DNA of 64,000 bases from Nemertoderma westbladi (GCA_032718475.1 JAUCBJ010006637.1:62001-126000); one strand, 5' to 3'; counted from the first letter of the stretch, positions 3,023-64,000 are shown. Made by a program: numbers and translations. The notes: generated from the sequence alone by a model not told the origin.

Positions 3023-3590
3023 CGAGGCTTGTAACAAAGGGGACGAGTGTTGTGTACTAACTATTCAATATACCCTAGTCTAGAACGACCGTGTTTAGTA
3101 CATTGTGCGACATAAAAACGATGTGAAAAGTATCCCTATTCTGCTATTGGTAGAGTAATGTTGTGACACAGATGATTTGGGATTCAACTAGCGGTATATT
3201 GCAGTATTGCCTCACCACCCCACAGCCCACTATATACATGGACCTCCCTCTCTCTATAGCCCACAGGCCTATTCTTTATCTCTGGTCATTTTACTATTCT
3301 AACAGTTCTCAAGCCAGGTTCCAGGGATGAAGGGGTACCGGTAGGCTACGCCCTGATGCCAGTCCAGTCTGCCTGTTGTGCAGTAGTGTGTGTGTTACAT
3401 ACAGATACAAGGCCTACTAGATACCTAGGTACTACTAGCTGACTAGGCCTTGGTAGTAAGGCAGTAGGCCCCAGGCCCACACTTGCTCTAGGCCTAGGCC
3501 AGTGGCCAGTAGGCTATTCTAGGAATAGACTAGCTATTCTAGTTTATTACCGGTCAGCCGGTAGTTTATTTGCTGAAGTTTTGATTCACA

Positions 3591-9470: not shown

Positions 9471-10310
9471 CTATCCACTACAGACCGCGGCCTTCGCAGT
9501 AGCTCTGTTACCGTCCACTACCTCGCCCCAATCTCTCGCAGCTAACTTCGGCAACGCCGCCAATAACACCCGCTTCGCTACGTGAGCGTTAGTCTTCAAC
9601 GCGCGGAGAACTTCATCAACCGTAACGTTATGCTCCGATTCGCGCCAACTGTCGTAGTCAGTTGGCAAGGCTAACGCGGCGTACGATAAACCAGCCTCCC
9701 TCGCGAGACAGGCCTCCGGGACCGTGGTCATATTAACCACATCGGCGCCCCACGAAGCGAACAACTGGCTCTCTGCTCGCGTCGAGAACCGAGGTCCTTC
9801 TATAGTGACAGCTGTCCCTCGAGAATGAAACTTAATCCCGAGTTCCTTCATGGTTTCTATTAGAACGTTCCGCGTCTCCCGACAGAACGGTTCCCCCATC
9901 GGGACGTGTGCGACTCCGTGGAAATCGCTGTCAACCCGAGTTATTCCGTCGTAGAAAGTCGTTGCTCGGAGCCGCGTTCGGTCGATAAACTGGTCGATAA
10001 CTACGATTTCGCCGGGGGCGATTCCCTCTCGTAAAGAACCGCAGGCGGTTGTTACTAAGACGTGGGTGCAGCCGTGGGCCCGTAGCGCCCAGATGTTGGC
10101 GCGGTAGTTGAGAGTCGACGGGCTCACAGAGTGGTCGGCTCCGTGTCGGGAGAGTAGCACTACGTCTACTCCGGATATGGTGCCGATAAGGAGGGGGGAA
10201 GACGGGGGTCCGTACGGGGTCGATACGTTCAGCTTACGGAGGTCCGAGATGAATTCTACGTCCTCCAAACCTGTTCCACCGATAATACCAACGGTAATTT
10301 TCGACATCAT
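9471..10310 (-). CDS. MTAP: S-methyl-5'-thioadenosine phosphorylase, intronless
   Basis: Full-length 279-aa ORF with VGIIGGTG, TPYG.PS, LSRHG, NYRANIWAL, TTACGSLRE, DQFIDRT, TIEGPRFSTRAES, VNMTTVPE and TDYDSW motifs. Confidence 0.96.
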   Translation of the reverse strand: MMSKITVGIIGGTGLEDVEFISDLRKLNVSTPYGPPSSPLLIGTISGVDVVLLSRHGADHSVSPSTLNYRANIWALRAHGCTHVLVTTACGSLREGIAPGEIVVIDQFIDRTRLRATTFYDGITRVDSDFHGVAHVPMGEPFCRETRNVLIETMKELGIKFHSRGTAVTIEGPRFSTRAESQLFASWGADVVNMTTVPEACLAREAGLSYAALALPTDYDSWRESEHNVTVDEVLRALKTNAHVAKRVLLAALPKLAARDWGEVVDGNRATAKAAVCSG

Positions 10311-10882
10311 TAAATAATTACTTGAAATTATCTTGAATAATTTTATCTCTAATACCGGTAGCGCTACAGACAGATCTTAACACTTACCAGCTTACCGCTA
10401 CCAACAGTAATATTATTATTATTAATGGTATTTAAGCCATTATTGCCATTGTTATCAATTATTATTTTGGATAATATATTAACTTTTTATTATTTCTCGG
10501 ACAACTAAAAAGGAAGAGGGAGCTATTGGTTTAAGTATGTCAGCAGTGTATCTTATTATCTATCCATTCCCCATTCCAGTGTATATTAGCCAGCCTATCG
10601 CCGCTAAAGCCAGACATCAATATTTCTCTATCCTTGTAAGGTCGTAGTTGTGTCAAACTTTAGCTGATAATTTTTTTTATCAGTTTCGAAGAAACTGATG
10701 TTTCGTAGATTTTGCTCTATTGCTAAGTATTATAAATGTCTAGGAATTCGTGGTATTTATATTATGCTCTTATTATTGACACATCCTTATATGAATAGCA
10801 ATACAATAATTTATTCTTTAACTGACTTATTTTGCAAAATATAATTTTAATACTTTATTTTAAAATATACTTCGGCTCGGCC
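10311..10882. promoter_or_regulatory. Putative bidirectional promoter between MTAP and the CTHRC1-like gene
   Basis: Two start codons diverge ~570 bp apart; inferred from arrangement only, no TSS data. Confidence 0.45.
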
Positions 10883-17374: not shown

Positions 17375-17537
17375 TCACCACGTTGTGAGTATCTATGTCT
17401 GTGTAGCACAGGAATACAGGACATTCACCATGTGGCATTGAACTGCCCATTACTTCTCGATATCAAATCGGATAGTGATGATCTGCCGGACTTCTTTAAG
17501 AATCCTTGCGCTGCGGTTAAGTACACGTTCGAGGGAC
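17375..17537 (+). mobile_element. Probable 3' fragment of a second non-LTR retrotransposon family (C-terminal Cys/His knuckle)
   Basis: Translates SPRCEYLCLCSTGIQDIHHVALNCPLL, the C-x-C..Q..H...CP pattern seen at LINE ORF2 C-termini. Confidence 0.5.
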
Positions 17538-17931
17538 CTTCGCGCAGCACGAGGCTCAGCTAACCCGAAACATGTTAGCCCGAGAAAGCTGTAATCGGAG
17601 TACTCGAAATTTGGTCTACTACTTCGTTAGCTTGTCTCTACCAGTTCTATTTAAGCAATGATCGTAGGTCACTACTCCAACTTTCAGATGAATCTGATTG
17701 GTTCTATTACAGCTGCTGTTATGTTTCTGTTAATTCGCCCCCTAGCGGCCGACAGTGGAAGTGATCCATATTATAAACTACGATGTACTACATCACATGC
17801 TACGTAATAATACACCATAGAATACAGTATCAGGTCAGGGTCGCGAGATCCTGCTACCATTATGGCTGTAATGTGAGTACCACCTGTAGCTGTCAACCCA
17901 GTAGGGCAACCCGACCAGTATCAGTCAGTAC

Positions 17932-35539: not shown

Positions 35540-38500
35540 TTAACTCCCAGCACTGAGTATATCTGATCTAAGTTGAGGTGTCTCGAGTGCGGATTGTCTC
35601 AACCTCGTAACACATTCCATATACTCCGCGTATAAATGGCTACAATTCAATGAGTCCGTTAGATGTAGATCGAGGCATTTCTCGATTGAGTTTTTAATGT
35701 CGATGCAAACAGGTTTATATTCGATGGAACTGAAAAATAAAACAATTATATTATATATAAGAAATCGAAAAGTAATTAATTGTGGAATAAAAAAATGTAT
35801 CGAAAACAGTTTCATTATTTTATTACTCTGCAAAATTAGGGAGACCCTAAGGGGAGGCCTACCTACTGTGTTAGCTGTATTATATTATACATTTGGTATA
35901 GTAACAAGTTATGGATGGCAAGTAATTAATTGGTTGCCGATTGAGGATGTGAGATAATAAATTTCTAAAAATTAAGTGATTGAAGTAGAAGAGTGAAATA
36001 ACCTGAAGTAAGGAGGACTGCGATCGAGCGAGTGGAGGAAATAAAAGGGATAGTCTCCGATCGAATCTCATTGATTTATTTAGTTGGGAAATATGATTCT
36101 AATTATAAATTCTAATAATATAATATAATTCTACACACCACAGAGCATTGGGTCAGCTAATTACAGTGAATGTTCTAGACGTCTTTGTTAACCTCGCAAT
36201 GTACAAATTTCGGAATCGCGAAACTTTTAAGGGAATAAATATATCGCATTTACAAACCAATAAGTTTGCCATCCCCAACTTGTTACTATAGAAATGTACA
36301 GCTAACACAGTCATTAGGTAGTAGGACTACATTATTTTAATATTCAATACATATTGAATTTCTCCCCTCCTTATTAATTATTATATTTAGCCTTATAATG
36401 TTAGAAATTAATAGAGAATTGAGATGCTGTACTTATAAACTAATTAATACAACTTTAGTGTCTGGAGCGTCTAACTTCTATACATTGATCTGGGGTCGTT
36501 CACTAACCTTATCATTGAGTCAACCTTCTCTACATTCCATCTGAGATTGCTCTGAGCCATGGCTTTATGTAAACGACTTCTACGTTCCATTGCCTCGGCA
36601 TATTGCTGCCACACCTCGCTGTGCTCTTTAACCTATACATAGAAATAAAGCCTTATAATGTCCTTCTCATCCTCTATAAAATCTACTCCCGATTACCGGG
36701 AAATGGATTATCAATTTAACATAATTATTTATTTAAGTATTGAGCTTGTAACGAACTAATTAATTACCTTCGTGGCACACATTCACACTACTGTAACATC
36801 CTACCTGGTCCAGAAACAGTACCAAGTCCATTGATCAAGAAAACTTGCCACCTCCATGCAGCATAAAGGAGGTGCCACCTGTAGCTGCATAGACCCTCTT
36901 ACTAGGGCAAATCTGGTCCTGTAACTAGGAACCCCTTCGTTCTGGGATAGTGACACCCTTGGTCCTGGATTACGGACCCATATACTTGGCTGCAGAGGTA
37001 TATGGCCTGACCAGGCAGATGGTGATCTACCAATGGCTGGTCAGGAGTAGAGTGTTCTCATGTCCACTCTGAGTGCACTTCACTGCGACCTGCACCTGGC
37101 AGCAGGGGTATAGGGAATGACCCAGCAGATGAGCTGCACAGCCAATGGTGGGTCATGTGCGTCAGAGTAGATATGGCTGATGGGCCTCATATCTGACTCC
37201 ATTGCAACACCCACCCTGTGGAATGGCAAACCAGGGTGTGGTATTTGCCCCGTGAGCTGACTCGGCAAAAAAGCACCCCCCAACCCCCACTATGGATTAC
37301 ATTAGTAATGCGGAGGTCCGGCCACTAGAATTACCGGACACAATCGGCCTCACAGGCGTCAGTTAACTCCTGACCGTCTCACCCGCAACTGGAGAGAGAG
37401 CGGCCAACAATTCTGTGAATGCCTTTCCTGATGACCTTTCTGGCCCAAACCCTGGGACACCAGGGAGGCCAGATTGTGAGGGGGAGAGGGATTCTGGAGT
37501 TGGAGGCTACTCTCATGTTCCACCACGACCAACAAAGCCATTGGTGAAGTCACAAGTCACAAGACTAGCCTCAGTAAACACCCTAACACTCGGGTCCCCA
37601 ATGCGACAAGGTGAACTGACTGCCTTGGCAGATAAGCTTTCTCTTAGCGCAGTGGGTATTCAAGAGCACCGAATGCAGACTGGACAGACTGATGAGGTTC
37701 TGATTAAGGACATGGGGGGCGGTTGGCGACTCGCCCTCGCATCAGCAGATGATAGTGGCAATGGTAGAATTGGTCTATTGATGAATCCAACTGCACATGC
37801 AGCATTGGACAAAATAGACCAAATCTCCAACCGCATCATCAAAACAAATAAGTTGGTGCCAGTTCCCAAGAAGGGCAACCTAACACTCTATGGTTCTTTT
37901 CGGGGAATCTCATTGATCTCGATTGCTGCAAAGCTATACAATAGAATTCTATTAAATCGCATCAGGGATCCCATTGAGAGACTGCTCCGTGGAAATCAGA
38001 ATGGGTTCCGTAAAGGTCGGGGGACCATGGAGCCCATTTTGGCACTTAGACGGATAATTGAAGAGTTATCAAAAAAGAAAGGCAGGCATCTGCTGTTATC
38101 TTTGTTGACTTCTTCAAGGCCTTTGATTCAGTCTCTCGCTCACGTATGTTCAGCATACTTTCATTATATGGGATTCCTGATGAAATTATTGCAGCAATCA
38201 GACCAGTATACGATGGTTCGACAACATTTGTGTCTACTGTTGACGGTGACACAGAACCATTTGAAGTGTTATGGGGCGTCCTGATGGGAGACACACTTGC
38301 ACCATTCTTGTTCATAATTGTGGTTGACTATGTTCTACGCATGTCCTTCTAGATCATCATAATGATGATGGGGTGATGATAACTCCACCTACTGGCTCCA
38401 GAAGTCGAGGAAATCCTGCCAAGTACCTAACTGATCTAGACTTTGCTGATGACTTAGGAGTACTCTCAGAATCACTAGAGGGAGCCCAACTCAACGGCTC

Positions 38501-41500
38501 CTCAGCTCATTAGAACAGGCTGCTTCTAGTTTTTTTTTATTAACTCCAAAAAGACAAAAATGTTGACGGTTAACTTTGAAAGTCCTCAGCAAGTCTCTCA
38601 CCGGATGAGCATAAGCTCAAAGGATGGTATGCTTGAGCATGTGGACGACTTCTGTTACCTGGTATCATGGATCCGGAAGTCAGGTGAGGACTTTCGCATA
38701 CATAAGGGAAAGGCAAGGGTAGCATTGAATAGGCTTTCCAGGATTTGGACACATCGAATTCATCGGAAACTTAAGGTACGATTATTTAGAGCAGCAGTAG
38801 TTCCAGTACTCCTATATGGGAGTCAATGCTGGGCTCTAACTGCTGAGGACACCAAATCTCTGGATGGCACATTCACAAGAATGCTACGCCGGGTTCATTG
38901 TGTCAAGTACAATGCACACATCTCCAACCAGACACTATATAACATTGGAGGTGTCTCATTGGTTCCCCCAAGCTTGACACTAGAACAAAATCGCCTCCGC
39001 TTTGCAGGACATTGCTTTCGCCGTGAGGACCAGCCAGTGCATAATCTTGTACTTTGGCAGCCTCATGGAGTGAATAAGCATGGTGGACAGCCCATGACTT
39101 TCTTGAGACGCATCTTAAAGGACACTGGCCTTGAAGATGCGGATGATCTAGCAAATGTCATGGGCGATAGGGAGTTGTGGCGGCGAAATTTTGTCGACAA
39201 GTCGGCACAGCATTCTTAATATATATATGATATATATATATAATGCAGCTGCAATGCAGCATGCCGATCGTAGTAATAGTAGTAGTAGTAACAGCCTACC
39301 TTAGTGGCAGTGGAATTACGTTCATCCTGGCGTCCACGCCAGTAAGCCAGAGACCCTGGGTTAGGGTAATCCATAGCGTCCGTATCCTTATCGGGGGGAA
39401 ACAATGGACATTCTAGAATAAAAAAATAACAGTTTAATAATATGTAGAGCGCATAATGTGCATAAATAATACAGCAAAGCAAAGTCGGTTGCTATGATAC
39501 GGCTGAGCAAAAGGAAAACGATTTATATATAATGAAAAGTGGCGTTTAGCAGATAATTCTGTACCCGACATCATAATGCCCACAATTTTCAAAACCAACT
39601 TCTGGCAACTGCATTTTAAATATAAAGGCTTAATTTTATTTAAAATCAGTATAAGCAAAGGTGTGCGCACTACTATACCGAGCAATAATGGTTTCGGTCT
39701 GCCAAAACACCAGTTAAAATAACATTTAGTAGATTGTTTAAATGAATGGTGGAAAAATTGTCACAATTACTAGTTCATGTATATTTCTATTAACTTAAAT
39801 TAATAGAAGAGATTAAAAGAACGACAGACATCTGGCTGTTATCTTTTTTTGACTTCTGTATGGACTTCCGGGTCCAGAAGTCGCGGAAATCCATCCAAAC
39901 ATCTAACATATCTAGACTTTGCTGATGACTTAGGAGTACTCTCATAATATGGGAGTTCAACTTCATCAGCTCATTAGAACAGGCTACTTCTATTGTTGGT
40001 CTTTTTGTTAACTCCAAGAAGACAACAATTTTGACAGTTATGACTTATGAGCATAAGCTCTAAGGATGGTTTGCTTGAGCATGTGAACGACTTCTGCTAC
40101 CAGGGATCATGGATCCAGAGGTGAGGAGGTCTTTGAATACGTAACGGGAAGTCCTGGGCCGCATTGAATGGGGTTTCCAGGATTTGGAAGTCACACAGAA
40201 TACATCGTAAACATAAAGTACGATTATTTAGAGCAGCAGCAGTTCCACTACTCCTCTATTTGATTCCATGCTGGGCTTAACTGTTGAGGACACGAAATCT
40301 CTGTATGGCACTTACTGCATACAAGAAAGCTATGCCGGGTTCACTGTATCAAGTATAAAGCACACATCTCCAACCAGACACTATAACACTGGAGGTGTCT
40401 CATTGGAGACTTGAACAAAGCTGTCACCGCTTAGCAGGGCAAGTCCAATCATAACTGGGTACAATCTTGTTGTTTGTGTAGCCTCATGGAGAAAATAAAC
40501 AAGGTGGACATTCCCGAAAATGGGGAGGTAGAGTAAAACGTCTGTCCTTATCTGATCTGACATCATCTGAACCTATAACCAATCAGGAGAAACAGATATA
40601 ATATTGTATAAGGTACTGTTAATTAGGTACAGTAAATAGCCAATAGGGGATCAGGTTGCTAGGCTACGTATCAGTATCATCATATGACATACAGCAGTAC
40701 AGGCATACCGGTATGCAGCCAATGCACCAAGGCATTGGTATTATATATTAAAAATGCGATATAGGATGAAGGATGGCGGGTATTTTTGTATATCTTTCTT
40801 GTTAATATTTATCTTTATTAATAGTTGAAAGTTAATTATATTAATTATAATTAATATTATTAAATAATGATACTTATTAGTATATTACAGATTTGTTTTA
40901 AAAATTAAACATCCATACTGTATTAATATATTACTACTACTACTAGGTCGAGCGAACTCGGACATCGGATCAGAATCTCTGTACTGCCGAATATGGCGCA
41001 ACACTTATGCCGCATATTGCCCTGATTGCCAGTTGATACAGCGAAGTTTATACCCAGACGACGGGAAAATGGGAATGTAGGAAGGTGGATGGGAATGGGG
41101 AATCAATAAACGCTGCTGTTACCTTCCAATTGAAGGAAAGGAGCAGGTTACAGCGGCGGCATGCCGATACTAGTAGTAGTACAGCGGCGGCAATTTCTAA
41201 CCAAAACAATAAAGTTGTTACCTACAAACTGAGGGAAAGGACCTGCTCCTTTCCCTCAATTTGTAGGTAACAATTTTATTGTTTACAGGGTCTAGGATTT
41301 TCTAACTAAAACAATAATCGATGTTGTTACCAATTTAGGGAATAAAGCAGATTACAGAATCTAGCTTTTCTAACCAAACAATAAACTATGTTGTTGTTAC
41401 CTACCTCATAACCAAAACAATAAACGTGTGTTGAGTAGGTTACATCTGTACATGGTTTCGCTTTTCTAACCAAAACAATATAAGTTGTTGTTACCTATGA

Positions 41501-47549: not shown

Positions 47550-50509
47550 GGGGGGGGTATAATAATAGACCATAAATTTTGGACGCTCTATAGATGCATC
47601 TAAAATTATTTTTTTGCTAGGAGTCATATTTTGAGTTTTGTGACTAAGGAATTAAAATTTTGGAAAAATTCAAAATTTTTCAAAAATTTTATTTTTTCGC
47701 CAAAATTTTGCCAAAAAGGCAAAAAATGAAAAAAATGCTAAGGCTTCTAGCCAAATTATCCAAATACTTCAAAACTCACGTGAGAAAGTCAGTAGGACGT
47801 CCCAAACGATTTGCATTGACAAAATTTTGATATCTTGTCGAGAAGAGCAAAAAGCACCAAAAGGGACATTTTTGGTCCAAAAAATGACCAAAATTTCAAA
47901 AATTTGGCCCAATTTTTCGAAAAAATTGAGTTTTTAAAAAAATATCAAAATTTTGTCAATGCATTTTGTAAAGGACCCCACAATCATCGATCATGCAAAA
48001 AATCAGCACATTTGGGCCATTTTTGACAGAGCCTTAGCATTTTTCGTTTGAAAAATGCTAATTGGAGAAAAACAGGTTTAAAGTTAAAGTTTGTTTATTT
48101 TATTATGAAGTTAAATTTTTGAAATTTCGATTAAATGAGATAAACTCAGTGAATTCTAATAAAATTTTTTTCATCTAGTTCCAAATTTTATGTAGATTCC
48201 AAAAATTGTATTATTATCGCATGTTAATCTTAAGGTCATATTATTTCATATAAAAGACATGTTAAAGGGTGTGAATTTTTTGACAAAATTTGAACAAAAA
48301 ACTGAAATCAATAAAAAATAATAATTCAAATTAGGCACTATATTAATATTCATTAATTAAAATTAAATTTAAAAATTTAAAATGAAATTTAAAAAGTTAA
48401 TTAAAAGGCCCCAGATTTATATGACTTATGATCGGGTGCTTGCCATTTCTTTGATGGTTTGTGTTCAGTACTTTTCTGTTTACGTTTTAGGTTGACCTTC
48501 TTTGCTCGTTCTGCAAGGTCACCATCATCTTCCTCAAGGCCAAGCTTCTTCAAAATTATCTGTTCTGCTGAACACCCCCGATTGTGAACTAAAACAGTAT
48601 ACGAAACATGAAACATGAGTGTACTTAGACCCACAAACGTTTCTTTAGATAGACGAGTCCATAGCCGTGAATGCAGAGATTCGTTCGGATTTTGTGTGAG
48701 GCCAGGGATACAGCGTTCCAGAATTTCGCTCGTTGTTAGGCGTTCATAAACAGGTAAAATAAACTTCATGTTTGCCTCTTTTATAAATGTTACATTTTTG
48801 TAACTTATAGCATTGTTTTTGAATTTACACCACTTATTTTCAGGGCATAACTCATGTTGTTTCTCAACATTATCTCCATAATCACAATAGTGATGTGTTG
48901 CAGCCACGATTTCACTTCGAATCGTGCTTATGAGCACTGATTTTTCAGTCTCTGAGAGTTTATCTATATCAACATCTGCTATATTCTTCACGATCGTATT
49001 TCGGTAATATGACTGCAATTGGTGACATCGACTATCAGTCAACCCTCCCTTGCCTCCAAGTTTATGAGTTTTGCGAGCATTGGAAAGACCTGTATATAGA
49101 CGCTTCGCAACGTGGTTCAGGCACTCTTTCTTCTGCACTGTTACATTCTGCTCTCTGTAAGGATCGGACTCCAATATGTTCTTCATAACGCTGCTGTCGC
49201 CATCCGATACCATTGATTGATATATGACACCATTATTTGATAGGGATCTATTGAATAGTTTAACAGCTAAATGAGGTTCCATACCTGAACTGGACCCTGA
49301 ATAATTTATATTACACTCATGATCAGCATTGCCATCTTCTTCTTTGTTGCGGCTACAAATATTACAGTATTTTGAACAAACATCGAAATCAATGACATGT
49401 CCTGTATTTTCGGATATGATAAACGCGGCACCATAAAGTGATTGATGGCCTCTTTTCATCCATGTACCGTCAAAAGATATACATATTTCCCTGTCAATCT
49501 CTTTCATTGCACAATTTTTTGCATTTCCTCGTGCAAGTGATTCCGTGACCTTCGAGATTTCGTTGACATGAAATTGCCAGGCTCTCTTCGCAACAGGAGA
49601 TGGTAGTGACATTATTCTAGAAAACGTCTCTGCATCACCATGGGTCCCACCAACACAAAGCCAAGCCAGTACTGCACGAAGATTCACATCCGCTGTTTTT
49701 CTTCCAGGACGAGGTTCAGTTCGAGAAACTTGGTCGCTCGTGAAAGTAGAATATTGCCAATCACAACGTGAACATTTCCCCTCAAAATTGGTACTATAAC
49801 CACGATGTGACTCATTTATCACTACTGTACCGTCACATTGCTTATCATCATGTTTCTCCATTATCAGTTTCTTTATTATTTGCGTTGCTACAACGTTATA
49901 TCCCTCCAACTTTCCATCTGAGGGTAGGACATTCAGATTCGATGCTATTAGCGACGGTTCTCGATCTTTTGGCACTACCGGTACCGGTACTGAAATCGAT
50001 TTCATATGCGCGAGGTTCAATGTACCGGTATCTTGTTTCTTGGTTCCTGTTTCTTGTTTCTTGGTTCTTGGCATACTGTATTATAAAAATTATATCGTCA
50101 ACGATGTATGTACAATTTTCGATTCGAAGATGGAGGACGCTCTATAGTCTGTGTCCGTCAAAACTGCTGATTGCATTGATTGAAACACCAATACAGCATA
50201 CAGTTAGTAACTAAAACATAACAATGTGCAAATTCTCGTTTTAAACCTCCCGCTAAAATACATTCCAACCTGTAATAACTTATTAGCCAATACAATGATT
50301 TCAGTGCAACAAGCCGGAAATTTTGTTAATTTTTGTCATTTTTTTCAAATAATTTTCAGGATGCGTGTCTATATAATGAGCCATAACTCGAAAACTAGAC
50401 AAGCTAGAAATAAACTGTTTACAGATTTGAAATCTCCATAAAATTTGCTACAAGAAACGGGTATAAAATTTTTTTTATATTTTTTGACCCCAATTATTAT
50501 ACCCCCCCC
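47550..50509 (-). mobile_element. Kolobok-type DNA transposon, 2960 bp, TTAA TSD
   Basis: TTAA (47546-49) GGGGGGGGTATAATAAT ... ATTATTATACCCCCCCC TTAA (50510-13): perfect 17-bp TIR, purine-purine termini, encloses a transposase ORF. Confidence 0.85.
48401..50074 (-). CDS. DDE transposase (Mutator-like/Kolobok family), 557 aa
   Basis: ISFDGTWMKRGHQS, SKYCNIC, NYSGSSSGME, MVSDGDSS, KKECLNHVAKR, TQNPNESLHS; uninterrupted ORF. Confidence 0.92.
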   Translation of the reverse strand: MPRTKKQETGTKKQDTGTLNLAHMKSISVPVPVVPKDREPSLIASNLNVLPSDGKLEGYNVVATQIIKKLIMEKHDDKQCDGTVVINESHRGYSTNFEGKCSRCDWQYSTFTSDQVSRTEPRPGRKTADVNLRAVLAWLCVGGTHGDAETFSRIMSLPSPVAKRAWQFHVNEISKVTESLARGNAKNCAMKEIDREICISFDGTWMKRGHQSLYGAAFIISENTGHVIDFDVCSKYCNICSRNKEEDGNADHECNINYSGSSSGMEPHLAVKLFNRSLSNNGVIYQSMVSDGDSSVMKNILESDPYREQNVTVQKKECLNHVAKRLYTGLSNARKTHKLGGKGGLTDSRCHQLQSYYRNTIVKNIADVDIDKLSETEKSVLISTIRSEIVAATHHYCDYGDNVEKQHELCPENKWCKFKNNAISYKNVTFIKEANMKFILPVYERLTTSEILERCIPGLTQNPNESLHSRLWTRLSKETFVGLSTLMFHVSYTVLVHNRGCSAEQIILKKLGLEEDDGDLAERAKKVNLKRKQKSTEHKPSKKWQAPDHKSYKSGAF

Positions 50510-53653: not shown

Positions 53654-54342
53654 CTTTGGTATAACCATAGGGTACTGTGCTTTGGTATAACCATAGGGTA
53701 CTGTGCTTTGGTATAACCATAGGGTACTGTGCTTTGGTATAACCATATAGGGTACTGTGCTTTGGTATAACCATAGGGTACTGTGCTTTGGTATAACCAT
53801 ATAGGGTACTGTGCTTTGGTATAACCATAGGGTACTGTGCTTTGGTATAACCATAGGGTACTGTGCTTTGGTATAACCATAGGGTACTGTGCTTTGGTAT
53901 AACCATAGGGTACTGTGCTTTGGTATAACCATAGGGTACTGTGCTTTGGTATAACCATAGGGTACTGTGCTTTGGTATAACCATAGGGTACTGTGCTTTG
54001 GTATAACCATAGGGTACTGTGCTTTGGTATAACCATATAGGGTACTGTGCTTTGGTATAACCATAGGGTACTGTGCTTTGGTATAACCATATAGGGTACT
54101 GTGCTTTGGTATAACCATAGGGTACTGTGCTTTGGTATAACCATAGGGTACTGTGCTTTGGTATAACCATAGGGTACTGTGCTTTGGTATAACCATAGGG
54201 TACTGTGCTTTGGTATAACCATATAGGGTACTGTGCTTTGGTATAACCATAGGGTACTGTGCTTTGGTATAACCATAGGGTACTGTGCTTTGGTATAACC
54301 ATAGGGTACTGTGCTTTGGTATAACCATATAGGGTACTATGC
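53654..54342. repeat. 26/28-bp minisatellite CTTTGGTATAACCAT(AT)AGGGTACTGTG
   Basis: CTTTGGT at 53654, 53680 etc.; ~26 copies. Confidence 0.98.
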
Positions 54343-55043
54343 TTTTTTGGTTAGTCGAATTCATTATTAGAAATCGAAAACGAGATTAGATGCAAAATTT
54401 TAATTTTCATTTTTTAATATTAAAAGAACATATATACATGCATACAGACAGAAAATATTAAAAGAGCACCAAAATATATATTAGTTTAGTATAGGGTAGT
54501 ATTACCTACTACCCTATAGTAAGGTCATGGTACATATTTTAATCTTCTGTGTTCTAAACATTAATCAGAAAAGTAATTAACATAAGGTTTATTAGCATAA
54601 AGAAAATAAATACATTATGACTTACTGTACTGTATAAAGTTCAAAATACTGTAGTATACGGTCCTGGCCCTGGGACCCTGGGTCCATTTCAGCGTTATCC
54701 GTACAGTATCAGCGCGATTGATGTCCCAGTGTGTTATACAGTATGTATTAACAGTCTTGGACATCACCAGCAATGTACCGCCGCTACCGGTACTACATTT
54801 ATGTATTTATTCAAAGATTCCTCGCGACTCGGAAATATTATCTCACCTCAAATGAATTCTATAATTTATATATAAATATATATTTAGGTAATTAAAACAA
54901 ATAATAACAACTGTGTACAGGTGTAAAGCAGTCACAAAATACGGGTGTGACAACAAGCGAACAAGGATATGAAAATATATACTGTATATCTTGCAGCCGT
55001 GGATTTTGCTTTTATCCTCCAAATATAATATGTAGGGCCTATT

Positions 55044-58000
55044 TCATTGGACTTTGAACATATCAACTTTACTGCTAGAATTATTGTAGCCTTTACTTTC
55101 CATGTGATCCACAATGGCCTTGTATATCTCATCTCGATTCATCATCATTCCGAATAAATATGGCTAAAAAACAATCACAGTAACCTTTTAGATTTAGCGG
55201 AACTACAATAAATAATAATAATAAATATGGATAAAAAACAATCACAGTAACCTTTTAGATTTAGCGGAACTACATTCAATAATAATAATAAATATGGATA
55301 AAAAACAATCACAGTAACCTTTTAGATTTAGCGGAACTACATTCAATAATAATAATAAATATGGATAAAAAACAATCACAGTAACCTTTTAGATTTAGCG
55401 GAACTACATTCAATAATAATAATAAATATGGATAAAAAACAATCACAGTAACCTTTTAGATTTAGCGGAACTACATTCAATAATAATAATAAATATGGAT
55501 AAAAAACAATCACAGTAACCTTTTAGATTTAGCGGAACTACAATCAATAATAATAATAAATATGGCTAAAAAACAATCACAGTAACCTTTTAGATTTAGC
55601 GGAACTACATTCAATAATAATAATAAATATGGATAAAAAACAATCACAGTAACCTTTTAGATTTAGCGGAACTACATTCAATAATAATAATAAATATGGA
55701 TAAAAAACAATCACAGTAACCTTTTAGATTTAGCGGAACTACAATAAATAATAATAATAAATATGGATAAAAAACAATCACAGTAACCTTTTAGATTTAG
55801 CGGAACTACAATAAATAATAATAATAAATATGGATAAAAAACAATCACAGTAACCTTTTAGATTTAGCGGAACTACATTCAATAATAATAATAAATATGG
55901 ATAAAAAACAATCACAGTAACCTTTTAGATTTAGCGGAACTACATTCAATAATAATAATAAATATGGATAAAAAACAATCACAGTAACCTTTTAGATTTA
56001 GCGGAACTACATTCAATAATAATAATAAATATGGATAAAAAACAATCACAGTAACCTTTTAGATTTAGCGGAACTACATTCAATAATAATAATAAATATG
56101 GATAAAAAACAATCACAGTAACCTTTTAGATTTAGCGGAACTACATTCAATAATAATAATAAATATGGATAAAAAACAATCACAGTAACCTTTTAGATTT
56201 AGCGGAACTACATTCAATAATAATAATAAATATGGATAAAAAACAATCACAGTAACCTTTTAGATTTAGCGGAACTACATTCAATAATAATAATAAATAT
56301 GGATAAAAAACAATCACAGTAACATTTTAGATTTAGCGGAACTACAATCAATAATAACAATAAATATGGCTAAAAAACAATCACAGTAACCTTTTAGATT
56401 TAGCGGAACTACAATCAATAATAACAATAAATATGGCTAAAAAACAATCACAGTAACCTTTTAGATTTAGCGGAACTACAATAAATAATAATAATAAATA
56501 TGGCTAAAAAACAATCACAGTAACCTTTTAGATTTAGCGGAACTACAATAAATAATAATAATAAATATGGCTAAAAAACAATCACAGTAACCTTTTAGAT
56601 TTAGCGGAACTACAATAAATAATAATAATAAATATGGCTAAAAAACAATCACAGTAACCTTTTAGATTTAGCGGAACTACAATAAATAATAATAATAAAT
56701 ATGGCTAAAAAACAATCACAGTAACCTTTTAGATTTAGCGGAACTACAATCAATAATAACAATAAATATGGCTAAAAAACAATCACAGTAACCTTTTAGA
56801 TTTAGCGGAACTACAATAAATAATAATAATAAATATGGCTAAAAAACAATCACAGTAACCTTTTAGATTTAGCGGAACTACAATAAATAATAATAATAAA
56901 TATGGATAAAAAACAATCACAGTAACCTTTTAGATTTAGCGGAACTACAATAAATAATAATAATAAATATGGCTAAAAAACAATCACAGTAACCTTTTAG
57001 ATTTAGCGGAACTACAATAAATAATAATAATAAATATGGCTAAAAAACAATCACAGTAACCTTTTAGATTTAGCGGAACTACAATCAATAATAACAATAA
57101 ATATGGCTAAAAAACAATCACAGTAACCTTTTAGATTTAGCGGAACTACAATAAATAATAATAATAAATATGGCTAAAAAACAATCACAGTAACCTTTTA
57201 GATTTAGCGGAACTACAATAAATAATAATAATAAATATGGATAAAAAACAATCACAGTAACCTTTTAGATTTAGCGGAACTACATTCAATAATAATAATA
57301 AATATGGATAAAAAACAATCACAGTAACCTTTTAGATTTAGCGGAACTACATTCAATAATAATAATAAATATGGATAAAAAACAATCACAGTAACCTTTT
57401 AGATTTAGCGGAACTACATTCAATAATAATAATAAATATGGATAAAAAACAATCACAGTAACCTTTTAGATTTAGCGGAACTACATTCAATAATAATAAT
57501 AAATATGGATAAAAAACAATCACAGTAACCTTTTAGATTTAGCGGAACTACATTCAATAATAATAATAAATATGGATAAAAAACAATCACAGTAACCTTT
57601 TAGATTTAGCGGAACTACATTCAATAATAATAATAAATATGGATAAAAAACAATCACAGTAACCTTTTAGATTTAGCGGAACTACATTCAATAATAATAA
57701 TAAATATGGATAAAAAACAATCACAGTAACCTTTTAGATTTAGCGGAACTACAATAAATAATAACAATAAATATGGCTAAAAAACAATCACAGTAACCTT
57801 TTAGATTTAGCGGAACTACAATCAATAATAACAATAAATATGGCTAAAAAACAATCACAGTAACCTTTTAGATTTAGCGGAACTACAATAAATAATAATA
57901 ATAAATATGGCTAAAAAACAATCACAGTAACCTTTTAGATTTAGCGGAACTACAATAAATAATAATAATAAATATGGCTAAAAAACAATCACAGTAACCT

Positions 58001-59473
58001 TTTAGATTTAGCGGAACTACAATAAATAATAATAATAAATATGGCTAAAAAACAATCACAGTAACCTTTTAGATTTAGCGGAACTACAATAAATAATAAT
58101 AATAAATATGGCTAAAAAACAATCACAGTAACCTTTTAGATTTAGCGGAACTACAATCAATAATAACAATAAATATGGCTAAAAAACAATCACAGTAACC
58201 TTTTAGATTTAGCGGAACTACAATAAATAATAATAATAAATATGGCTAAAAAACAATCACAGTAACCTTTTAGATTTAGCGGAACTACAATAAATAATAA
58301 TAATAAATATGGCTAAAAAACAATCACAGTAACCTTTTAGATTTAGCGGAACTACATTCAATAATAATAATAAATATGGCTAAAAAACAATCACAGTAAC
58401 CTTTTAGATTTAGCGGAACTACAATAAATAATAATAATAAATATGGCTAAAAAACAATCACAGTAACCTTTTAGATTTAGCGGAACTACAATCAATAATA
58501 ACAATAAATATGTAATATTATGGTTTTGTTCAGAAATGAAAAAATTGAGAAAGCGCGTCACCGGGGGTTGAACCAGCGGTATACTTACGTTTCAGTCCAC
58601 ATCAGTAGCGCTAACCAGTTCAGCCACTTGCCCCTGACATTCACTCTCCCACCTAATCCACTTCTACTTCTCACGCTGGTAGCGCTGGTTCAACCCCCGG
58701 TGACGCGCTTTCTCATTTTTTCCATTTCTGAACAAAACCATAATATTACATCTTTAATTACAGTTGCATTAACAGCTGAACTCCAATTTATTTATATAAT
58801 AATAAATAAACAAATTGATTGCGTTTCCTTTTACGATTTTAACTTATTTACGTAAAATATCTAGAAATATAAATATAAAGTAATTAACAATATAGGGAAC
58901 CTACGGACAATCTTCAATATGTAACACTATATACACATACTGGGCCTCGTGCTGCGCGAAGGCCCCACGAACGTGTAACACTATATACACATACATTCTG
59001 TAGTTTTAGAGCACCGGGTTTTGTCATCTACATACCCACCTATAGATACACTTTTAGATATAGATAGACTCTTATAGATACAATTTTTGCCACAATTTGT
59101 TTCGCTAAACCAATCAATCTACATTCCTTATTTAAAAATGTTACATTACTATTCAAAATAATGTATTTTCCAATTAATATTAGAGCAAAATTATAGATAG
59201 GCTTTAATAATATAAATGAAGTTTGAGTTACCTGTAGTCCATTCTTTACAATAATCTCCATACAGACACCACTTCCTGGGATCACAGCGTAAGGTTTACA
59301 TTTCTCTATAGAAATAACTTCATTTAATTCTATTGTCAAGTTCTTAGTAGTTTGAGTCTTCGCTCTCAAGAAACACAGGAAATTATCAGTTAGAAATAAT
59401 CTCCCGTGTTTAAATGGAGAAATTGTTTTATCCTTAAGAATCCTGGTTGTCCTGTACCCACTTGATGGCCATT
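55044..59473 (-). CDS. GRAMD4: GRAM-domain protein GRAMD4-like, last two exons (59232-59473 and 55044-55163); 5' part lies beyond the window
   Basis: WPSSGYRTTRILKDKTISPFKHGRLFLTDNFLCFLR..IELNEVISIEKCKPYAVIPGSGVCMEI + PYLFGMMMNRDEIYKAI..stop parallels the recalled GRAMD4 GRAM domain (GVLYVTENYLCF..VLPGSGMGI..PLVFGAMVHRDEAF); canonical phase-0 intron. Confidence 0.85.
55153..58511. repeat. 67-bp minisatellite, ~50 copies, each containing the GRAMD4 terminal acceptor region
   Basis: GG(A/C)TAAAAAACAATC at 55229 and 55296; the first unit overlaps the exon start at 55163. Confidence 0.98.
58510..58751. repeat. Hairpin with ~68-bp inverted arms built from a tRNA-like SINE head
   Basis: ATGTAATATTATGGTTTTGTTCAGAAATG...CACCGGGGGTTGAACCAGCG vs CGCTGGTTCAACCCCCGGTG...CTGAACAAAACCATAATATTACAT; minus-strand A-box TGGCTGAACTGGTTAGCGC and B-box GGTTCAACCCC. 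Confidence 0.8.
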
Positions 59474-59944
59474 CTAAAACATTTTAAAAATATTCCAGTA
59501 TATTATTATTCTAGTATATATGTAATTCAGAGCTTGAATCTATACAGTTATGATAATCTATGAGTTTAGCAAAATCGCATTTATTTTGTTACTCAAGCAG
59601 TCATTGAATGGTCGTGTACAAAGAAGATGGGACATTCCCAACACACATGGCGAATGAAGGAAGCAAGCCATTTTCTCCTATATTGCCATTACCACTTTTT
59701 GGGAATTAAGGGATTCATTCCCTTGTTTTATGTTTATTAATTTTGGTTTCCTTGTCCCCTTTTTTATCACTGAAGTTTCCTTTTTCCCCTTTATTTTAAC
59801 TTTTCTGTTTCCTTTTTTTGTGAAATTTACCGCTGGGAGGGCTGCATTTCCTTCCAAGCTACAAAGGGAACTAAATTCGCCTTGATGAAACAACAATAAT
59901 TTGGGGACGTAAATTCGCTTAAAGGGGACCTAAGTCCGCAATTA

Positions 59945-62900
59945 CCTGTGGGATGAGCACCCGGCACCTGTCGTTCTGTACACCCACACACCTACCTGGT
60001 AAGGCGCTGTCTGGAGTGAGCACCCGGCACCTGCCGTTCTGTACACCCACACACCTACCTGGTAAGGCGCTGTCTGTAGTGAGCACCCGGCACCTGCCGT
60101 TCTGTACACCCATACACCTACCTGGTAAGGCGCTGTCTGGAGTGAGCACCCGGCACTTGCCGTTCTGTACACCCACACACCTACCTGGTAAGGCGCTGTC
60201 TGTAGTGAGCACCCGGCACCTGCCGTTCTGTACACCCATACACCTACCTGGTAAGGCGCTGTCTGGAGTGAGCACCCGGCACCTGCCGTTCTGTACACCC
60301 ACATACCTACCTGGCAAGGCGCTGTCTGGAGTGAGCACCCGGCACCTGCCGTTCTGTACACCCACACACCTACCTGGTAAGGCGCTGTCTGTAGTGAGCA
60401 CCCGGCACCTGTCGTTCTGTACACCCACACACCTACCTGGTAAGGCGCTGTCTGGAGTGAGCACCCGGCACCTGTCGTTCTGTACACCCACACACCTACC
60501 TGGTAAGGCGCTGGCTGGAGTGAGCACCCGGCACCTGCCGTTCTGTACACCCACATACCTGCCTGGTAAGGCGCTGTCTGTAGTGAGCACCCGGCACCTG
60601 CCGTTCTGTACACCCACACACCTACCTGGTAAGGCGCTGGCTGGAGTGAGCACCCGGCACCTGCCGTTCTGTACACCCACACACTTACCTGGTAAGGCGC
60701 TGTCTGGAGTGAGCACCCGGCACCTGTCGTTCTGTACACCCACACATCTACCTTGGAAGGCGCTGTCTGGAGTGAGCACCCGGCACCTGTCGTTCTGTAC
60801 ACCCACACACTTACCTGGTAAGGCGCTGTCTGGAGTGAGCACCCGGCACCTGCCGTTCTGTACACCCACACACCTACCTGGTAAGGCGCTGGCTGGAGTG
60901 AGCACCCGGCACCTGCCGTTCTGTACACCCACACACTTACCTGGTAAGGCGCTGTCTGGAGTGAGCACCCGGCACCTGCCGTTCTGTACACCCACACACC
61001 TACCTGGCAAGGCGCTGTCTGGAGTGAGCACCCGGCACCTGCCGTTCTGTACACCCACACACTTACCTGGTAAGGCGCTGTCTGGAGTGAGCACCCGGCA
61101 CCTGCCGTTCTGTACACCCACACACTTACCTGGTAAGGCGCTGTCTGGAGTGAGCACCCGGCACCTGCCGTTCTGTACACCCACACACTTACCTGGTAAG
61201 GCGCTGTCTGGAGTGAGCACCCGGCACCTGCCGTTCTGTACACCCACACACTTACCTGGTAAGGCGCTGTCTGGAGTGAGCACCCGGCACCTGCCGTTCT
61301 GTACACCCACACATCTACCTGGTAAGGCGCTGTCTGGAGTGAGCACCCGGCACCTGTCGTTCTGTACACCCACACACCTACCTGGTAAGGCGCTGTCTGT
61401 AGTGAGCACCCGGCACCTGTCGTTCTGTACACCCACACACCTACCTGGTAAGGCGCTGTCTGGAGTGAGCACCCGGCACCTGTCGTTCTGTACACCCACA
61501 CACCTACCTGGTAAGGCGCTGGCTGGAGTGAGCACCCGGCACCTGCCGTTCTGTACACCCACATACCTGCCTGGTAAGGCGCTGTCTGTAGTGAGCACCC
61601 GGCACCTGCCGTTCTGTACACCCACACACCTACCTGGTAAGGCGCTGGCTGGAGTGAGCACCCGGCACCTGCCGTTCTGTACACCCACACACTTACCTGG
61701 TAAGGCGCTGTCTGGAGTGAGCACCCGGCACCTGTCGTTCTGTACACCCACACATCTACCTTGGAAGGCGCTGTCTGGAGTGAGCACCCGGCACCTGTCG
61801 TTCTGTACACCCACACACTTACCTGGTAAGGCGCTGTCTGGAGTGAGCACCCGGCACCTGCCGTTCTGTACACCCACACACCTACCTGGTAAGGCGCTGG
61901 CTGGAGTGAGCACCCGGCACCTGCCGTTCTGTACACCCACACACTTACCTGGTAAGGCGCTGTCTGGAGTGAGCACCCGGCACCTGCCGTTCTGTACACC
62001 CACACACTTACCTGGTAAGGCGCTGTCTGGAGTGAGCACCCGGCACCTGCCGTTCTGTACACCCACACATCTACCTGGTAAGGCGCTGTCTGGAGTGAGC
62101 ACCCGGCACCTGTCGTTCTGTACACCCACACACCTACCTGGTAAGGCGCTGGCTGGAGTGAGCACCCGGCACCTGCCGTTCTGTACACCCACACACCTAC
62201 CTGGTAAGGCGCTGTCTGGAGTGAGCACCCGGCACCTGCTGCCGTTCTGTACACCCACACACTTACCTGGTAAGGCGCTGTCTGCAGTGAGCACCCGGCA
62301 CCTGCCGTTCTGTACACCCACACACTTACCTGGTAAGGCGCTGTCTGGAGTGAGCACCCGGCACCTGTCGTTCTGTACACCCACACACCTACCTGGTAAG
62401 GCGCTGTCTGCAGTGAGCACCCGGCACCTGCCGTTCTGTACACCCACACACTTACCTGGTAAGGCGCTGTCTGGAGTGAGCACCCGGCACCTGTCGTTCT
62501 GTACACCCACACACCTACCTGGTAAGGCGCTGTCTGGAGTGAGCACCCGGCACCTGCCGTTCTGTACACCCACACACCTACCTGGTAAGGCGCTGGCTGG
62601 AGTGAGCACCCGGCACCTGCCGTTCTGTACACCCACATACCTGCCTGGTAAGGCGCTGTCTGGAGTGAGCACCCGGCACCTGCCGTTCTGTACACCCACA
62701 CACCTACCTGGTAAGGCGCTGTCTGGAGTGAGCACCCGGCACCTGTCGTTCTGTACACCCACACACTTACCTGGTAAGGCGCTGTCTGGAGTGAGCACCC
62801 GGCACCTGTCGTTCTGTACACCCACACACTTACCTGGTAAGGCGCTGTCTGGAGTGAGCACCCGGCACCTGCCGTTCTGTACACCCACACACTTACCTGG

Positions 62901-64000
62901 TAAGGCGCTGTCTGGAGTGAGCACCCGGCACCTGTCGTTCTGTACACCCACACACTTACCTGGTAAGGCGCTGTCTGGAGTGAGCACCCGGCACCTGTCG
63001 TTCTGTACACCCACACACCTACCTGGTAAGGCGCTGTCTGGAGTGAGCACCCGGCACCTGTCCGTTCTGTACACCCACACACTTACCTGGTAAGGCGCTG
63101 TCTGCAGTGAGCACCCGGCACCTGTCGTTCTGTACACCCACACACCTACCTGGTAAGGCGCTGTCTGGAGTGAGCACCCGGCACCTGTCGTTCTGTACAC
63201 CCACACACCTACCTGGTAAGGCGCTGTCTGGAGTGAGCACCCGGCACCTGCCGTTCTGTACACCCACACACCTACCTGGTAAGGCGCTGTCTGGAGTGAG
63301 CACCCGGCACCTGCCGTTCTGTACACCCACACACCTACCTGGTAAGGCGCTGTCTGGAGTGAGCACCCGGCACCTGCCGTTCTGTACACCCACACACCTA
63401 CCTGGTAAGGCGCTGTCTGGAGTGAGCACCCGGCACCTGTCGTTCTGTACACCCACACACCTACCTGGTAAGGCGCTGTCTGGAGTGAGCACCCGGCACC
63501 TGCCGTTCTGTACACCCACACACCTACCTGGTAAGGCGCTGTCTGGAGTGAGCACCCGGCACCTGTCGTTCTGTACACCCACACACCTACCTGGTAAGGC
63601 GCTGTCTGGAGTGAGCACCCGGCACCTGCCGTTCTGTACACCCACACACCTACCTGGTAAGGCGCTGTCTGGAGTGAGCACCCGGCACCTGTCGTTCTGT
63701 ACACCCACACACCTACCTGGTAAGGCGCTGTCTGGAGTGAGCACCCGGCACCTGCCGTTCTGTACACCCACACACCTACCTGGTAAGGCGCTGTCTGGAG
63801 TGAGCACCCGGCACCTGTCGTTCTGTACACCCACACACCTACCTGGTAAGGCGCTGTCTGGAGTGAGCACCCGGCACCTGTCGTTCTGTACACCCACACA
63901 CCTACCTGGTAAGGCGCTGTCTGGAGTGAGCACCCGGCACCTGCCGTTCTGTACACCCACACACCTACCTGGTAAGGCGCTGTCTGGAGTGAGCACCCGG
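59945..64000. repeat. 63-bp minisatellite, 64 or more copies, runs off the window end; each unit has a minus-strand CAG|GTA(G/A)GT donor
   Basis: GAGCAC at 59955 and 60018; variant CCTTGGAAGG at 60751 and 61759 (1008 bp = 16 units). Confidence 0.98.

What the first reader, a model, noticed from the sequence alone, without database searches (positions are those of the whole stretch)
55044..58511. GRAMD4 terminal-exon splice acceptor amplified ~50-fold, with live (AG) and dead (AT) copies in blocks
Seen: on the minus strand the 67-bp unit is the last ~56 nt of the intron (..GTGATTGTTTTTTAG) plus the first 11 nt of the final exon (CCATATTTATT). Only the last copy continues into PYLFGMMMNRDE. The main variable position is the acceptor dinucleotide itself (+ strand GGCTA = AG, GGATA = AT). 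Copies nearest the true exon (~55229-56305) and ~57239-57710 are mostly AT; ~56368-57180 and ~57775-58450 are mostly AG. Inference: the spliceosome must pass many identical upstream acceptors, or uses them to give a hydrophobic alternative tail (PYLLLLFIVVPLNLKGYCDCFLAIFIIIIYCSSAKSKRLL*) that truncates the GRAM domain. AT variants may be selected to silence decoys.
Basis: partly seen in the sequence, partly recalled or inferred. Interest (0 to 1): 0.85.

Follow-up and report, generated by a model that had tools for sequence, protein, structure and literature searches.

The report
Splice-acceptor "mirage" minisatellite in GRAMD4
The last intron of an invertebrate GRAMD4-like gene holds 50 head-to-tail copies of its own intron end plus the first 11 bases of the final exon, half with a broken splice signal; the one spliced assembly seen joins to the last, real copy, so this is likely a tolerated repeat of a kind already described in lancelets as a "mirage".

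Summary
The array is real: 50 units of 67 bp (55164-58513), each the last 56 nt of the intron plus 11 nt of the terminal exon of a GRAMD4-like gene; 25 end in AG, 25 in AT. One 2751-nt contig of run X4 (labelled 'DNA?', behaves like RNA) joins the upstream exon directly to the last unit's AG, skipping 24 AG decoys. Only that exon completes the GRAM domain. Another individual carries the array with both unit types. The selection argument is weak. The acceptor base is one of three equally variable, linked sites. The four AG/AT blocks are one AG+AT pair copied by a 21-unit duplication. The decoy tail's hydrophobicity follows from T-rich composition. Selection is not excluded: 16 of the 17 decoys nearest the exon are AT. 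This is a new member of a known kind, lancelet 'mirage' minisatellites (PMC3087553). The scan has noted such arrays many times, in this genome and others. Ordinary; low interest.

The parts
59232..59473 (-). Penultimate coding exon of a GRAMD4-like gene (most of the GRAM domain)
   Evidence: Pfam GRAM E 3.5e-08; best library hits are named GRAMD4-like; covered by the X4 contig at 59232-59475
55164..59231 (-). Last intron, 4068 nt, GT...AG
   Evidence: Ends read; skipped by the X4 contig
55164..58513 (-). Mirage minisatellite: 50 x 67 bp; each unit is 11 nt of exon start plus 56 nt of intron end (unit 1 differs at its first base)
   Evidence: multi-copy in DNA runs X1, X2, X3
57777..58513 (-). 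Units 1-11, all ending in AG (decoy acceptors)
57241..57776 (-). Units 12-19, all ending in AT
56370..57240 (-). Units 20-32, 12 of 13 ending in AG; units 22-41 repeat units 1-20 (21-unit higher-order duplication)
55231..56369 (-). Units 33-49, 16 of 17 ending in AT (unit 44 is AG)
55164..55230 (-). Unit 50, ending in the acceptor that is used (AG at 55165-55164)
   Evidence: The X4 contig leaves the stretch at 55165 and continues in the upstream exon
55044..55163 (-). Coding part of the terminal exon: 39 codons plus stop; last strand and helix of the GRAM domain (structure assignment inferred)
   Evidence: aligns with homologue C-termini
54350..55043 (-). 3' UTR (at least this long)
   Evidence: The X4 contig is colinear over 54350-55165 and runs 41 nt further
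58505..58756 (.). Inverted repeat (77-bp arms, 95% complementary) from a very high-copy dispersed element, abutting unit 1; the junction holds the 10-nt microhomology to the exon start

Best explanation
This is a 50-copy tandem amplification of an intron-exon border in the last intron of a GRAMD4-like gene, skipped in the one spliced assembly seen, and likely a neutral, tolerated 'mirage' minisatellite whose AG and AT blocks likely arose by ordinary repeat turnover. Shown: the unit anatomy, the junction to the last unit, the linked variants and the 21-unit duplication. Inferred, step 1: a 10-nt near-repeat 67 bp upstream of the exon start, at the edge of an inserted repeat element, seeded a first slippage or unequal exchange, and more unequal exchange grew the array. 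Inferred, step 2: one G-to-T change at the acceptor arose on a unit type carrying two other variants and spread with it in runs; a 21-unit block was then duplicated. Inferred, step 3: even the nearest decoy would close a 785-nt intron, so the 3' splice site is likely chosen by definition across the exon. The last copy wins because only it is followed by purine-rich exon sequence and lies closest to the 3' end; decoys are followed by U-rich repeat.
For: Junction: in run X4 a 2751-nt contig of depth 48.5 lies on 54350-55165 (record 42-857), and its loose end is the upstream exon from 59234. A contig of the same length and depth lies on 59232-59475 (record 856-1099). The intron so defined is GT...AG. 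Conservation: the true tail matches 22 of the 27 homologues tested (best E 8.8e-07 in that small set); the decoy tail has one 9-residue hit at E 0.89. Variants: three sites equally variable; two unit types make up 36 of 50; units 1-20 and 22-41 agree in 17 of 20 types; lag 21 has the highest self-match of lags 1-29 (0.62); the chance that one of 4 variable columns falls in the 2 acceptor columns is 0.117. A second individual (X2, with many flanking differences) has both AG and AT unit contigs at similar depth (224.1 and 211.6, against 12.7-14.1 for single-copy contigs). Exon context: 68% purine after the true acceptor against 41% after a decoy. Background: 15 arrays that I picked from the TRF table fill 20,048 of 64,000 bases. 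Precedent: lancelet acceptor and donor mirages do not disturb splicing, and many but not all of their units keep the splice signal (PMC3087553). In human data the sites closest across the exon are preferred when introns are long (PMC9225289).
Against: Only one spliced contig from one run was seen. That run is labelled 'DNA?' and its library is not on record. Its exon differs from the window at two bases, so it is another haplotype, and it is not shown that this individual carries the array. 16 of the 17 decoys nearest the exon are AT, and only 2 of 98 rotations or reflections of the acceptor string do as well (the window of 17 was chosen after seeing the data). An exon-centric rule would make exactly those nearest decoys the strongest competitors. 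The decoy frame stays open for 40 codons, which 2.7% of 20,000 shuffled units do. The seeding microhomology and the exon-definition step are not tested.
Confidence: 0.8

Rival explanations
1. Same origin, but weak selection favours AT units next to the true exon, because the nearest intact decoys would compete most with the real acceptor.
For: 16 of the 17 nearest decoys are AT; AG counts are 16 in units 1-25 and 8 in units 26-49; 2 of 98 rotations match. The acceptor is among only 4 multi-copy variable columns (chance 0.117). Exon-centric proximity (PMC9225289) predicts that near decoys matter most.
Against: The blocks are not independent (21-unit duplication), so with two block types an AT block next to the exon has about even odds (inference). 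Columns 21 and 23 vary as much and have no clear splice role. An AG decoy persists at unit 44, six units from the exon. AT units keep two other AGs. AT neighbours would also add a risk, since an exchange in the shared 11 nt could put AT on the real acceptor (inference).
Confidence: 0.12
2. The AG decoys are used as regulated alternative acceptors, giving a protein with a 40-residue hydrophobic tail in place of the end of the GRAM domain, or an unstable mRNA that tunes dosage.
For: 24 intact decoys carry the same intronic context as the true site; all 24 would give an open 40-residue tail (GRAVY 1.40 for the one scored). Some human donor-type arrays do use their nearest pseudo-sites (6-16, CBS; PMC1557585 passages).
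Against: The spliced contig runs unbroken through the true junction. The tail has no homology. Shuffled units are as hydrophobic (mean 1.20 +/- 0.35; 28.5% reach the observed value). The tail sequence varies among decoys with the unit variants (11 versions).
Confidence: 0.05
3. The array, or its doubled 21-unit block, is inflated by assembly.
For: No long read was seen. The depth ratio in X3 is only about 14-fold (273.1 against 19.5). Near-exact higher-order duplications can be artefacts.
Against: Core-unit depth in X2 is 464.6 against 12.7-14.1, about 33-37-fold (rough, and the tool warns that depth is no copy number). The two 20-unit stretches differ in 3 unit types. An array of some length exists in both DNA samples laid (S1, S2).
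Confidence: 0.03

Closest known systems
Lancelet 'mirage' minisatellites, above all the BflGb6 acceptor mirage (also Adh3, troponin C, BflGb9, PGBD5). PMC3087553: 6 passages seen; PMC3902484: 1 passage seen; supplements not read
   Same: Tandem copies of an intron 3' end plus the exon 5' part, lying in the intron before the real exon. Many but not all units keep the splice signal, normal splicing is kept, and edge units escape homogenisation (unit 50 differs in type from units 45-49 here).
   Different: 50 units here against 3-6 in BflGb6; only 11 exon bases per unit; a terminal exon; a single-base AG/AT dimorphism at 1:1 in a 21-unit higher-order repeat; apparently a different animal (not identified; best protein hit is 55% to a ribbon-worm protein).
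Human exon-intron-spanning VNTRs: F7 intron 7 (37 bp), CBS, 6-16, LMNB2, PDGF. PMC1557585: abstract and 12 passages seen
   Same: Identical pseudo-splice sites reiterated in an intron, mostly silent, with the exon-adjacent site used.
   Different: Those are donor arrays explained by 5'-to-3' scanning. Here the acceptor used is the last of the series, which a first-come rule across the intron would not pick.
Duplicated 3' splice-site constructs of beta-globin (Reed and Maniatis 1986; not read, seen only as cited in PMC9225289 and PMC5389562)
   Same: Identical acceptors followed by short or full exon sequence. PMC5389562 reports splicing only to the distal site in its constructs (inefficiently).
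   Different: Artificial two-site substrates in vitro; the classical rule as summarised in PMC9225289 favours the upstream site across short introns.

Membership tests
Mirage minisatellite (PMC3087553) | Tandem repeat whose unit spans an exon-intron boundary of the host gene | tested here: met
   Unit = 56 intron nt + 11 exon nt; boundary fixed by the spliced contig
Mirage minisatellite (PMC3087553) | Many but not all units retain the AG/GT splice signal | tested here: met
   25 of 50 units end in AG
Mirage minisatellite (PMC3087553) | Regular splicing to the authentic site is kept | tested here: met
   One contig of one run (X4) joins 59232 to 55163. Caveat: that individual's array allele is unknown
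Mirage minisatellite (PMC3087553) | Length instability between haplotypes or cells | tested here: inconclusive
   Depth ratios of about 14 (X3) and 33-37 (X2) against 50 units in the window; contig depth is not a copy number
Mirage minisatellite (PMC3087553) | Concerted turnover inside the array, with edge units excluded | tested here: met
   Runs of two main unit types, a 21-unit duplication, all four combinations at 4 of 6 site pairs, and unit 50 unlike its neighbours
GRAMD4 family | C-terminal GRAM domain, nearest relatives annotated GRAMD4 | tested here: met
   PF02893 above cut-off; of 9 top hits looked up, 4 clusters are named GRAMD4(-like), 1 'GRAM domain-containing', 4 unnamed or hypothetical
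GRAMD4 family | N-terminal coiled-coil and membrane region; orthology by tree (features recalled) | not tested
   Upstream exons lie outside the window and no genome is held
Regulated alternative 3' splice-site cassette | Transcripts using the alternative acceptors | tested here: inconclusive
   None listed in X4, but contigs drop rare forms
Regulated alternative 3' splice-site cassette | Conserved alternative product | tested here: not met
   Decoy tail has no hit better than E 0.89 among 27 homologues

The most novel reading that the evidence does not exclude
The array carries a selected buffer: acceptor-dead (AT) units are held next to the real exon because the nearest intact decoys would steal splicing. 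The order of repeat variants within a minisatellite, not only its length, would then be shaped by splice-site competition and would tune GRAMD4 output.
Probability: 0.12. Interest if true: 0.55.

Novelty: new member of a known kind. Interest (0 to 1): 0.17.

Why it matters
As it stands it is one more mirage. Its modest value is as a natural test substrate: 24 intact and 25 point-inactivated copies of one acceptor at regular 67-nt steps before a terminal exon. That would let one measure how distance and exon context decide 3' splice-site choice. If selection on variant order were shown across haplotypes, it would be a new kind of constraint on minisatellite evolution.

Tried and rejected
No whole genome is held, so no empty-site, paralogue or genome-wide test was possible. 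The search for homologous proteins with longer targets found 0 of 11 candidates; the HMMER library search found 63. The PDB search gave one weak hit, E 0.21. No RNA holder was listed among 8 runs, which is no evidence on expression. X4 shows no cover over array bins (55190-55245, 58400-58503) or unique intron bins, and no joint from 59232 to unit 1 is among the joints shown (32 not shown); contigs cannot show absence, so this is not counted as evidence. X6 (another organism) laid 0 records. Rfam on 58400-59950 gave 3 matches, all far below gathering scores. 'AG is the hypervariable site' was rejected. 'The hydrophobic tail is special' was rejected on composition. The foldback at 58505-58756 was first read as a MITE; dropped because the high-copy element runs past the right arm to about 58800. 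Literature searches with VNTR and acceptor terms listed no direct acceptor-array paper; 'mirage' searches gave 2 papers. I make no claim that AG/AT-dimorphic acceptor arrays are absent from print.

Full report
Observation. TRF finds a 67-bp array at 55153-58512 with 50.1 copies and 98% matches. Parsed on the minus strand it gives exactly 50 units from 58513 to 55164, all 67 bp apart. Each unit ends in the intron's acceptor region and begins with the first 11 bases of the downstream exon; the first base of unit 1 differs. Five columns vary: 12 (8 of 50), 21 (21 of 50), 23 (21 of 50), 46 (1 of 50) and 67, the G of the acceptor (25 G, 25 T). So there are 24 intact decoys, 25 AT copies and the true site.

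Gene. The exon at 59473-59232 encodes 80 residues matching Pfam GRAM above cut-off (E 3.5e-08). A search of 1.84 billion representatives gave 63 hits at E <= 0.001. Of 9 top hits looked up, 4 clusters are named GRAMD4 or GRAMD4-like, 1 GRAM-domain protein, and 4 are unnamed or hypothetical. The 6 scanned carry GRAM at the C-terminus. Adding the exon at 55163-55044 extends the alignment through the conserved end of the domain: the true tail alone hits 22 of 27 homologues tested, while the decoy tail has one 9-residue hit at E 0.89. The organism is an unidentified invertebrate (inferred from these hits).

Which acceptor is used. No run on record as RNA was listed. But run X4, labelled 'DNA?', holds a 2751-nt contig of depth 48.5 that lies on 54350-55165 (record 42-857) and then continues with the sequence of the upstream exon from 59234. 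A contig of the same length and depth lies on 59232-59475 (record 856-1099). I take the two to be one record; the 2-base overlap is the AG shared by exon end and acceptor. This defines a 4068-nt GT...AG intron that contains the whole array. I infer that X4 is an RNA library because it holds this spliced form. Limits: one contig, one run, rare forms dropped, and the exon differs from the window at two bases, so the array allele of that individual is unknown.

Is the array real and shared? DNA runs X1 and X3 (one sample, possibly the window's source) and X2 (another study, with many flanking differences) all have high-depth unit contigs. In X2 the core unit contig has depth 464.6 against 12.7-14.1 for single-copy contigs. 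A contig spanning an AG acceptor has 224.1, and one with the AT variant has 211.6. In X3 the ratio is about 14. These are rough, since contig depth is not a copy number, but both unit types exist in a second individual at similar levels. No long read was seen.

The selection argument. The acceptor column is not specially variable: heterozygosity is 0.500 against 0.487 at columns 21 and 23. It is linked to column 23 (r2 0.47-0.59), and two unit types make up 36 of 50. With 4 multi-copy variable columns, the chance that one falls in the 2 acceptor columns is 0.117. The AG-AT-AG-AT pattern is a higher-order duplication: units 1-20 and 22-41 agree in 17 of 20 unit types, and lag 21 has the highest self-match (0.62) of lags 1-29. 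So there is effectively one AG block and one AT block. Every unit, AT or not, keeps two more AG dinucleotides (columns 27 and 45). Against my reading: 16 of the 17 nearest decoys are AT, matched by only 2 of 98 rotations or reflections. That window was chosen after the fact, and it only says that the longest AT run lies at the 3' end. Weak selection cannot be excluded from one array.

The alternative tail. All 24 decoys would give a 40-residue tail, in 11 versions. Its GRAVY of 1.40 is what a unit with 33 T in 67 bases gives: shuffled units average 1.20 +/- 0.35, and 28.5% of 20,000 reach it. One mild oddity is that only 2.7% of shuffles stay open for 40 codons. That shuffle ignores the 11 coding bases and the constraints on an acceptor region. 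Decoy use would also lengthen the 3' UTR from at least 694 nt to between about 1.1 and 4.0 kb.

Mechanism. Origin (inferred): the 10-mer that starts the exon recurs at the far end of the array, where unit 1 meets one arm of a 77-bp inverted repeat. Two such near-repeats 67 bp apart are a classic seed for a first duplication (established knowledge, recalled). The ancestral single-copy state could not be checked. Site choice (inferred): the nearest decoy would still close a 785-nt intron. In human data, introns above about 250 nt are handled by exon definition, and the sites closest across the exon are preferred (PMC9225289, 12 passages; that analysis concerns internal exons). After the shared 11 nt the true exon is 68% purine with 5 GAR triplets, against 41% and none in a decoy. 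In duplicated beta-globin acceptors followed by 14-205 nt of exon, PMC5389562 saw splicing only to the distal site, inefficiently (8 passages).

Comparison with the known. [quoted passage not shown] BflGb6 is an acceptor-type case; many but not all units keep the signals, and splicing is normal (PMC3087553, 6 passages; PMC3902484, 1 passage; supplements not read, and Additional file 4 of the first may bear on how acceptor variants are distributed). Human F7, CBS, 6-16, LMNB2 and PDGF have donor-type arrays, some with use of the nearest pseudo-sites (PMC1557585, abstract and 12 passages). The term 'mirage' came to me from earlier scan notes, and I checked the papers myself. Those notes list many similar arrays in other genomes and at least 8 in this one; they are leads, not support. 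None lies near this window.

Background. Fifteen arrays that I picked from the TRF table cover 20,048 of 64,000 bases (31%). In such a genome some amplified units will span splice sites. The 63-bp array at 59954-64000 may be a donor-type mirage of the same gene (see noticed in passing). If so, most of its donors are intact, which would argue that silencing decoys is not needed.

Verdict. The AG/AT blocks are best read as repeat turnover. New member of a known kind; interest 0.17.

Noticed in passing
window 59954-64000 (minus strand): A 63-bp array (64+ copies, runs off the window) in the preceding intron has a strong donor-like site per unit; 57 of 60 units parsed keep GT. Joined in phase to the next exon it is open and places Asp, Leu and Pro where homologues have Glu, Leu and Pro before the conserved Trp. 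The score is weak: 3381 of 200,000 random 7-mers reach it, and another GT in the unit scores higher. The X4 contig's 2-base overlap at 59474-59475 fits an upstream exon ending in AG. Possibly a second, donor-type mirage in the same gene; unresolved because its first copy lies outside the window.
   Followed up: partly
window 58505-58800: A very high-copy dispersed element (summed depth thousands-fold over single copy) in inverted arrangement. The minus strand near 58605-58580 has a degenerate hammerhead-like core (motif recalled; no Rfam hit). Loose ends of other genomic copies show an intact-looking core ending just where the right arm starts (58680). It resembles the inverted, hammerhead-bearing ends of Penelope-like elements (PMC8557442 passages) or animal retrozymes (bioRxiv 10.64898/2026.07.22.740005, listing only).
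   Followed up: partly
window 58920-58995: A short, extremely high-copy element with 21-bp direct repeats on both sides; a related stretch lies at 17522-17559.
   Followed up: no
window 53654-54345: A 26-bp array (26 copies). The spliced X4 contig runs 41 nt past 54350 towards it, so the 3' UTR may reach into or through this array.
   Followed up: no
window 9471-10376 (minus): An intronless 301-codon ORF that looks like methylthioadenosine phosphorylase (recalled resemblance; not searched).
   Followed up: no
window 48401-50080 (minus); 2008-2820 and 37367-39219: A 559-codon transposase-like ORF, and reverse-transcriptase-like LINE remnants (recalled resemblance; not searched).
   Followed up: no
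window 3585-5300 (plus): A 571-codon ORF running through a 57-bp (19-residue) and a 24-bp array; it may be a coding minisatellite.
   Followed up: no
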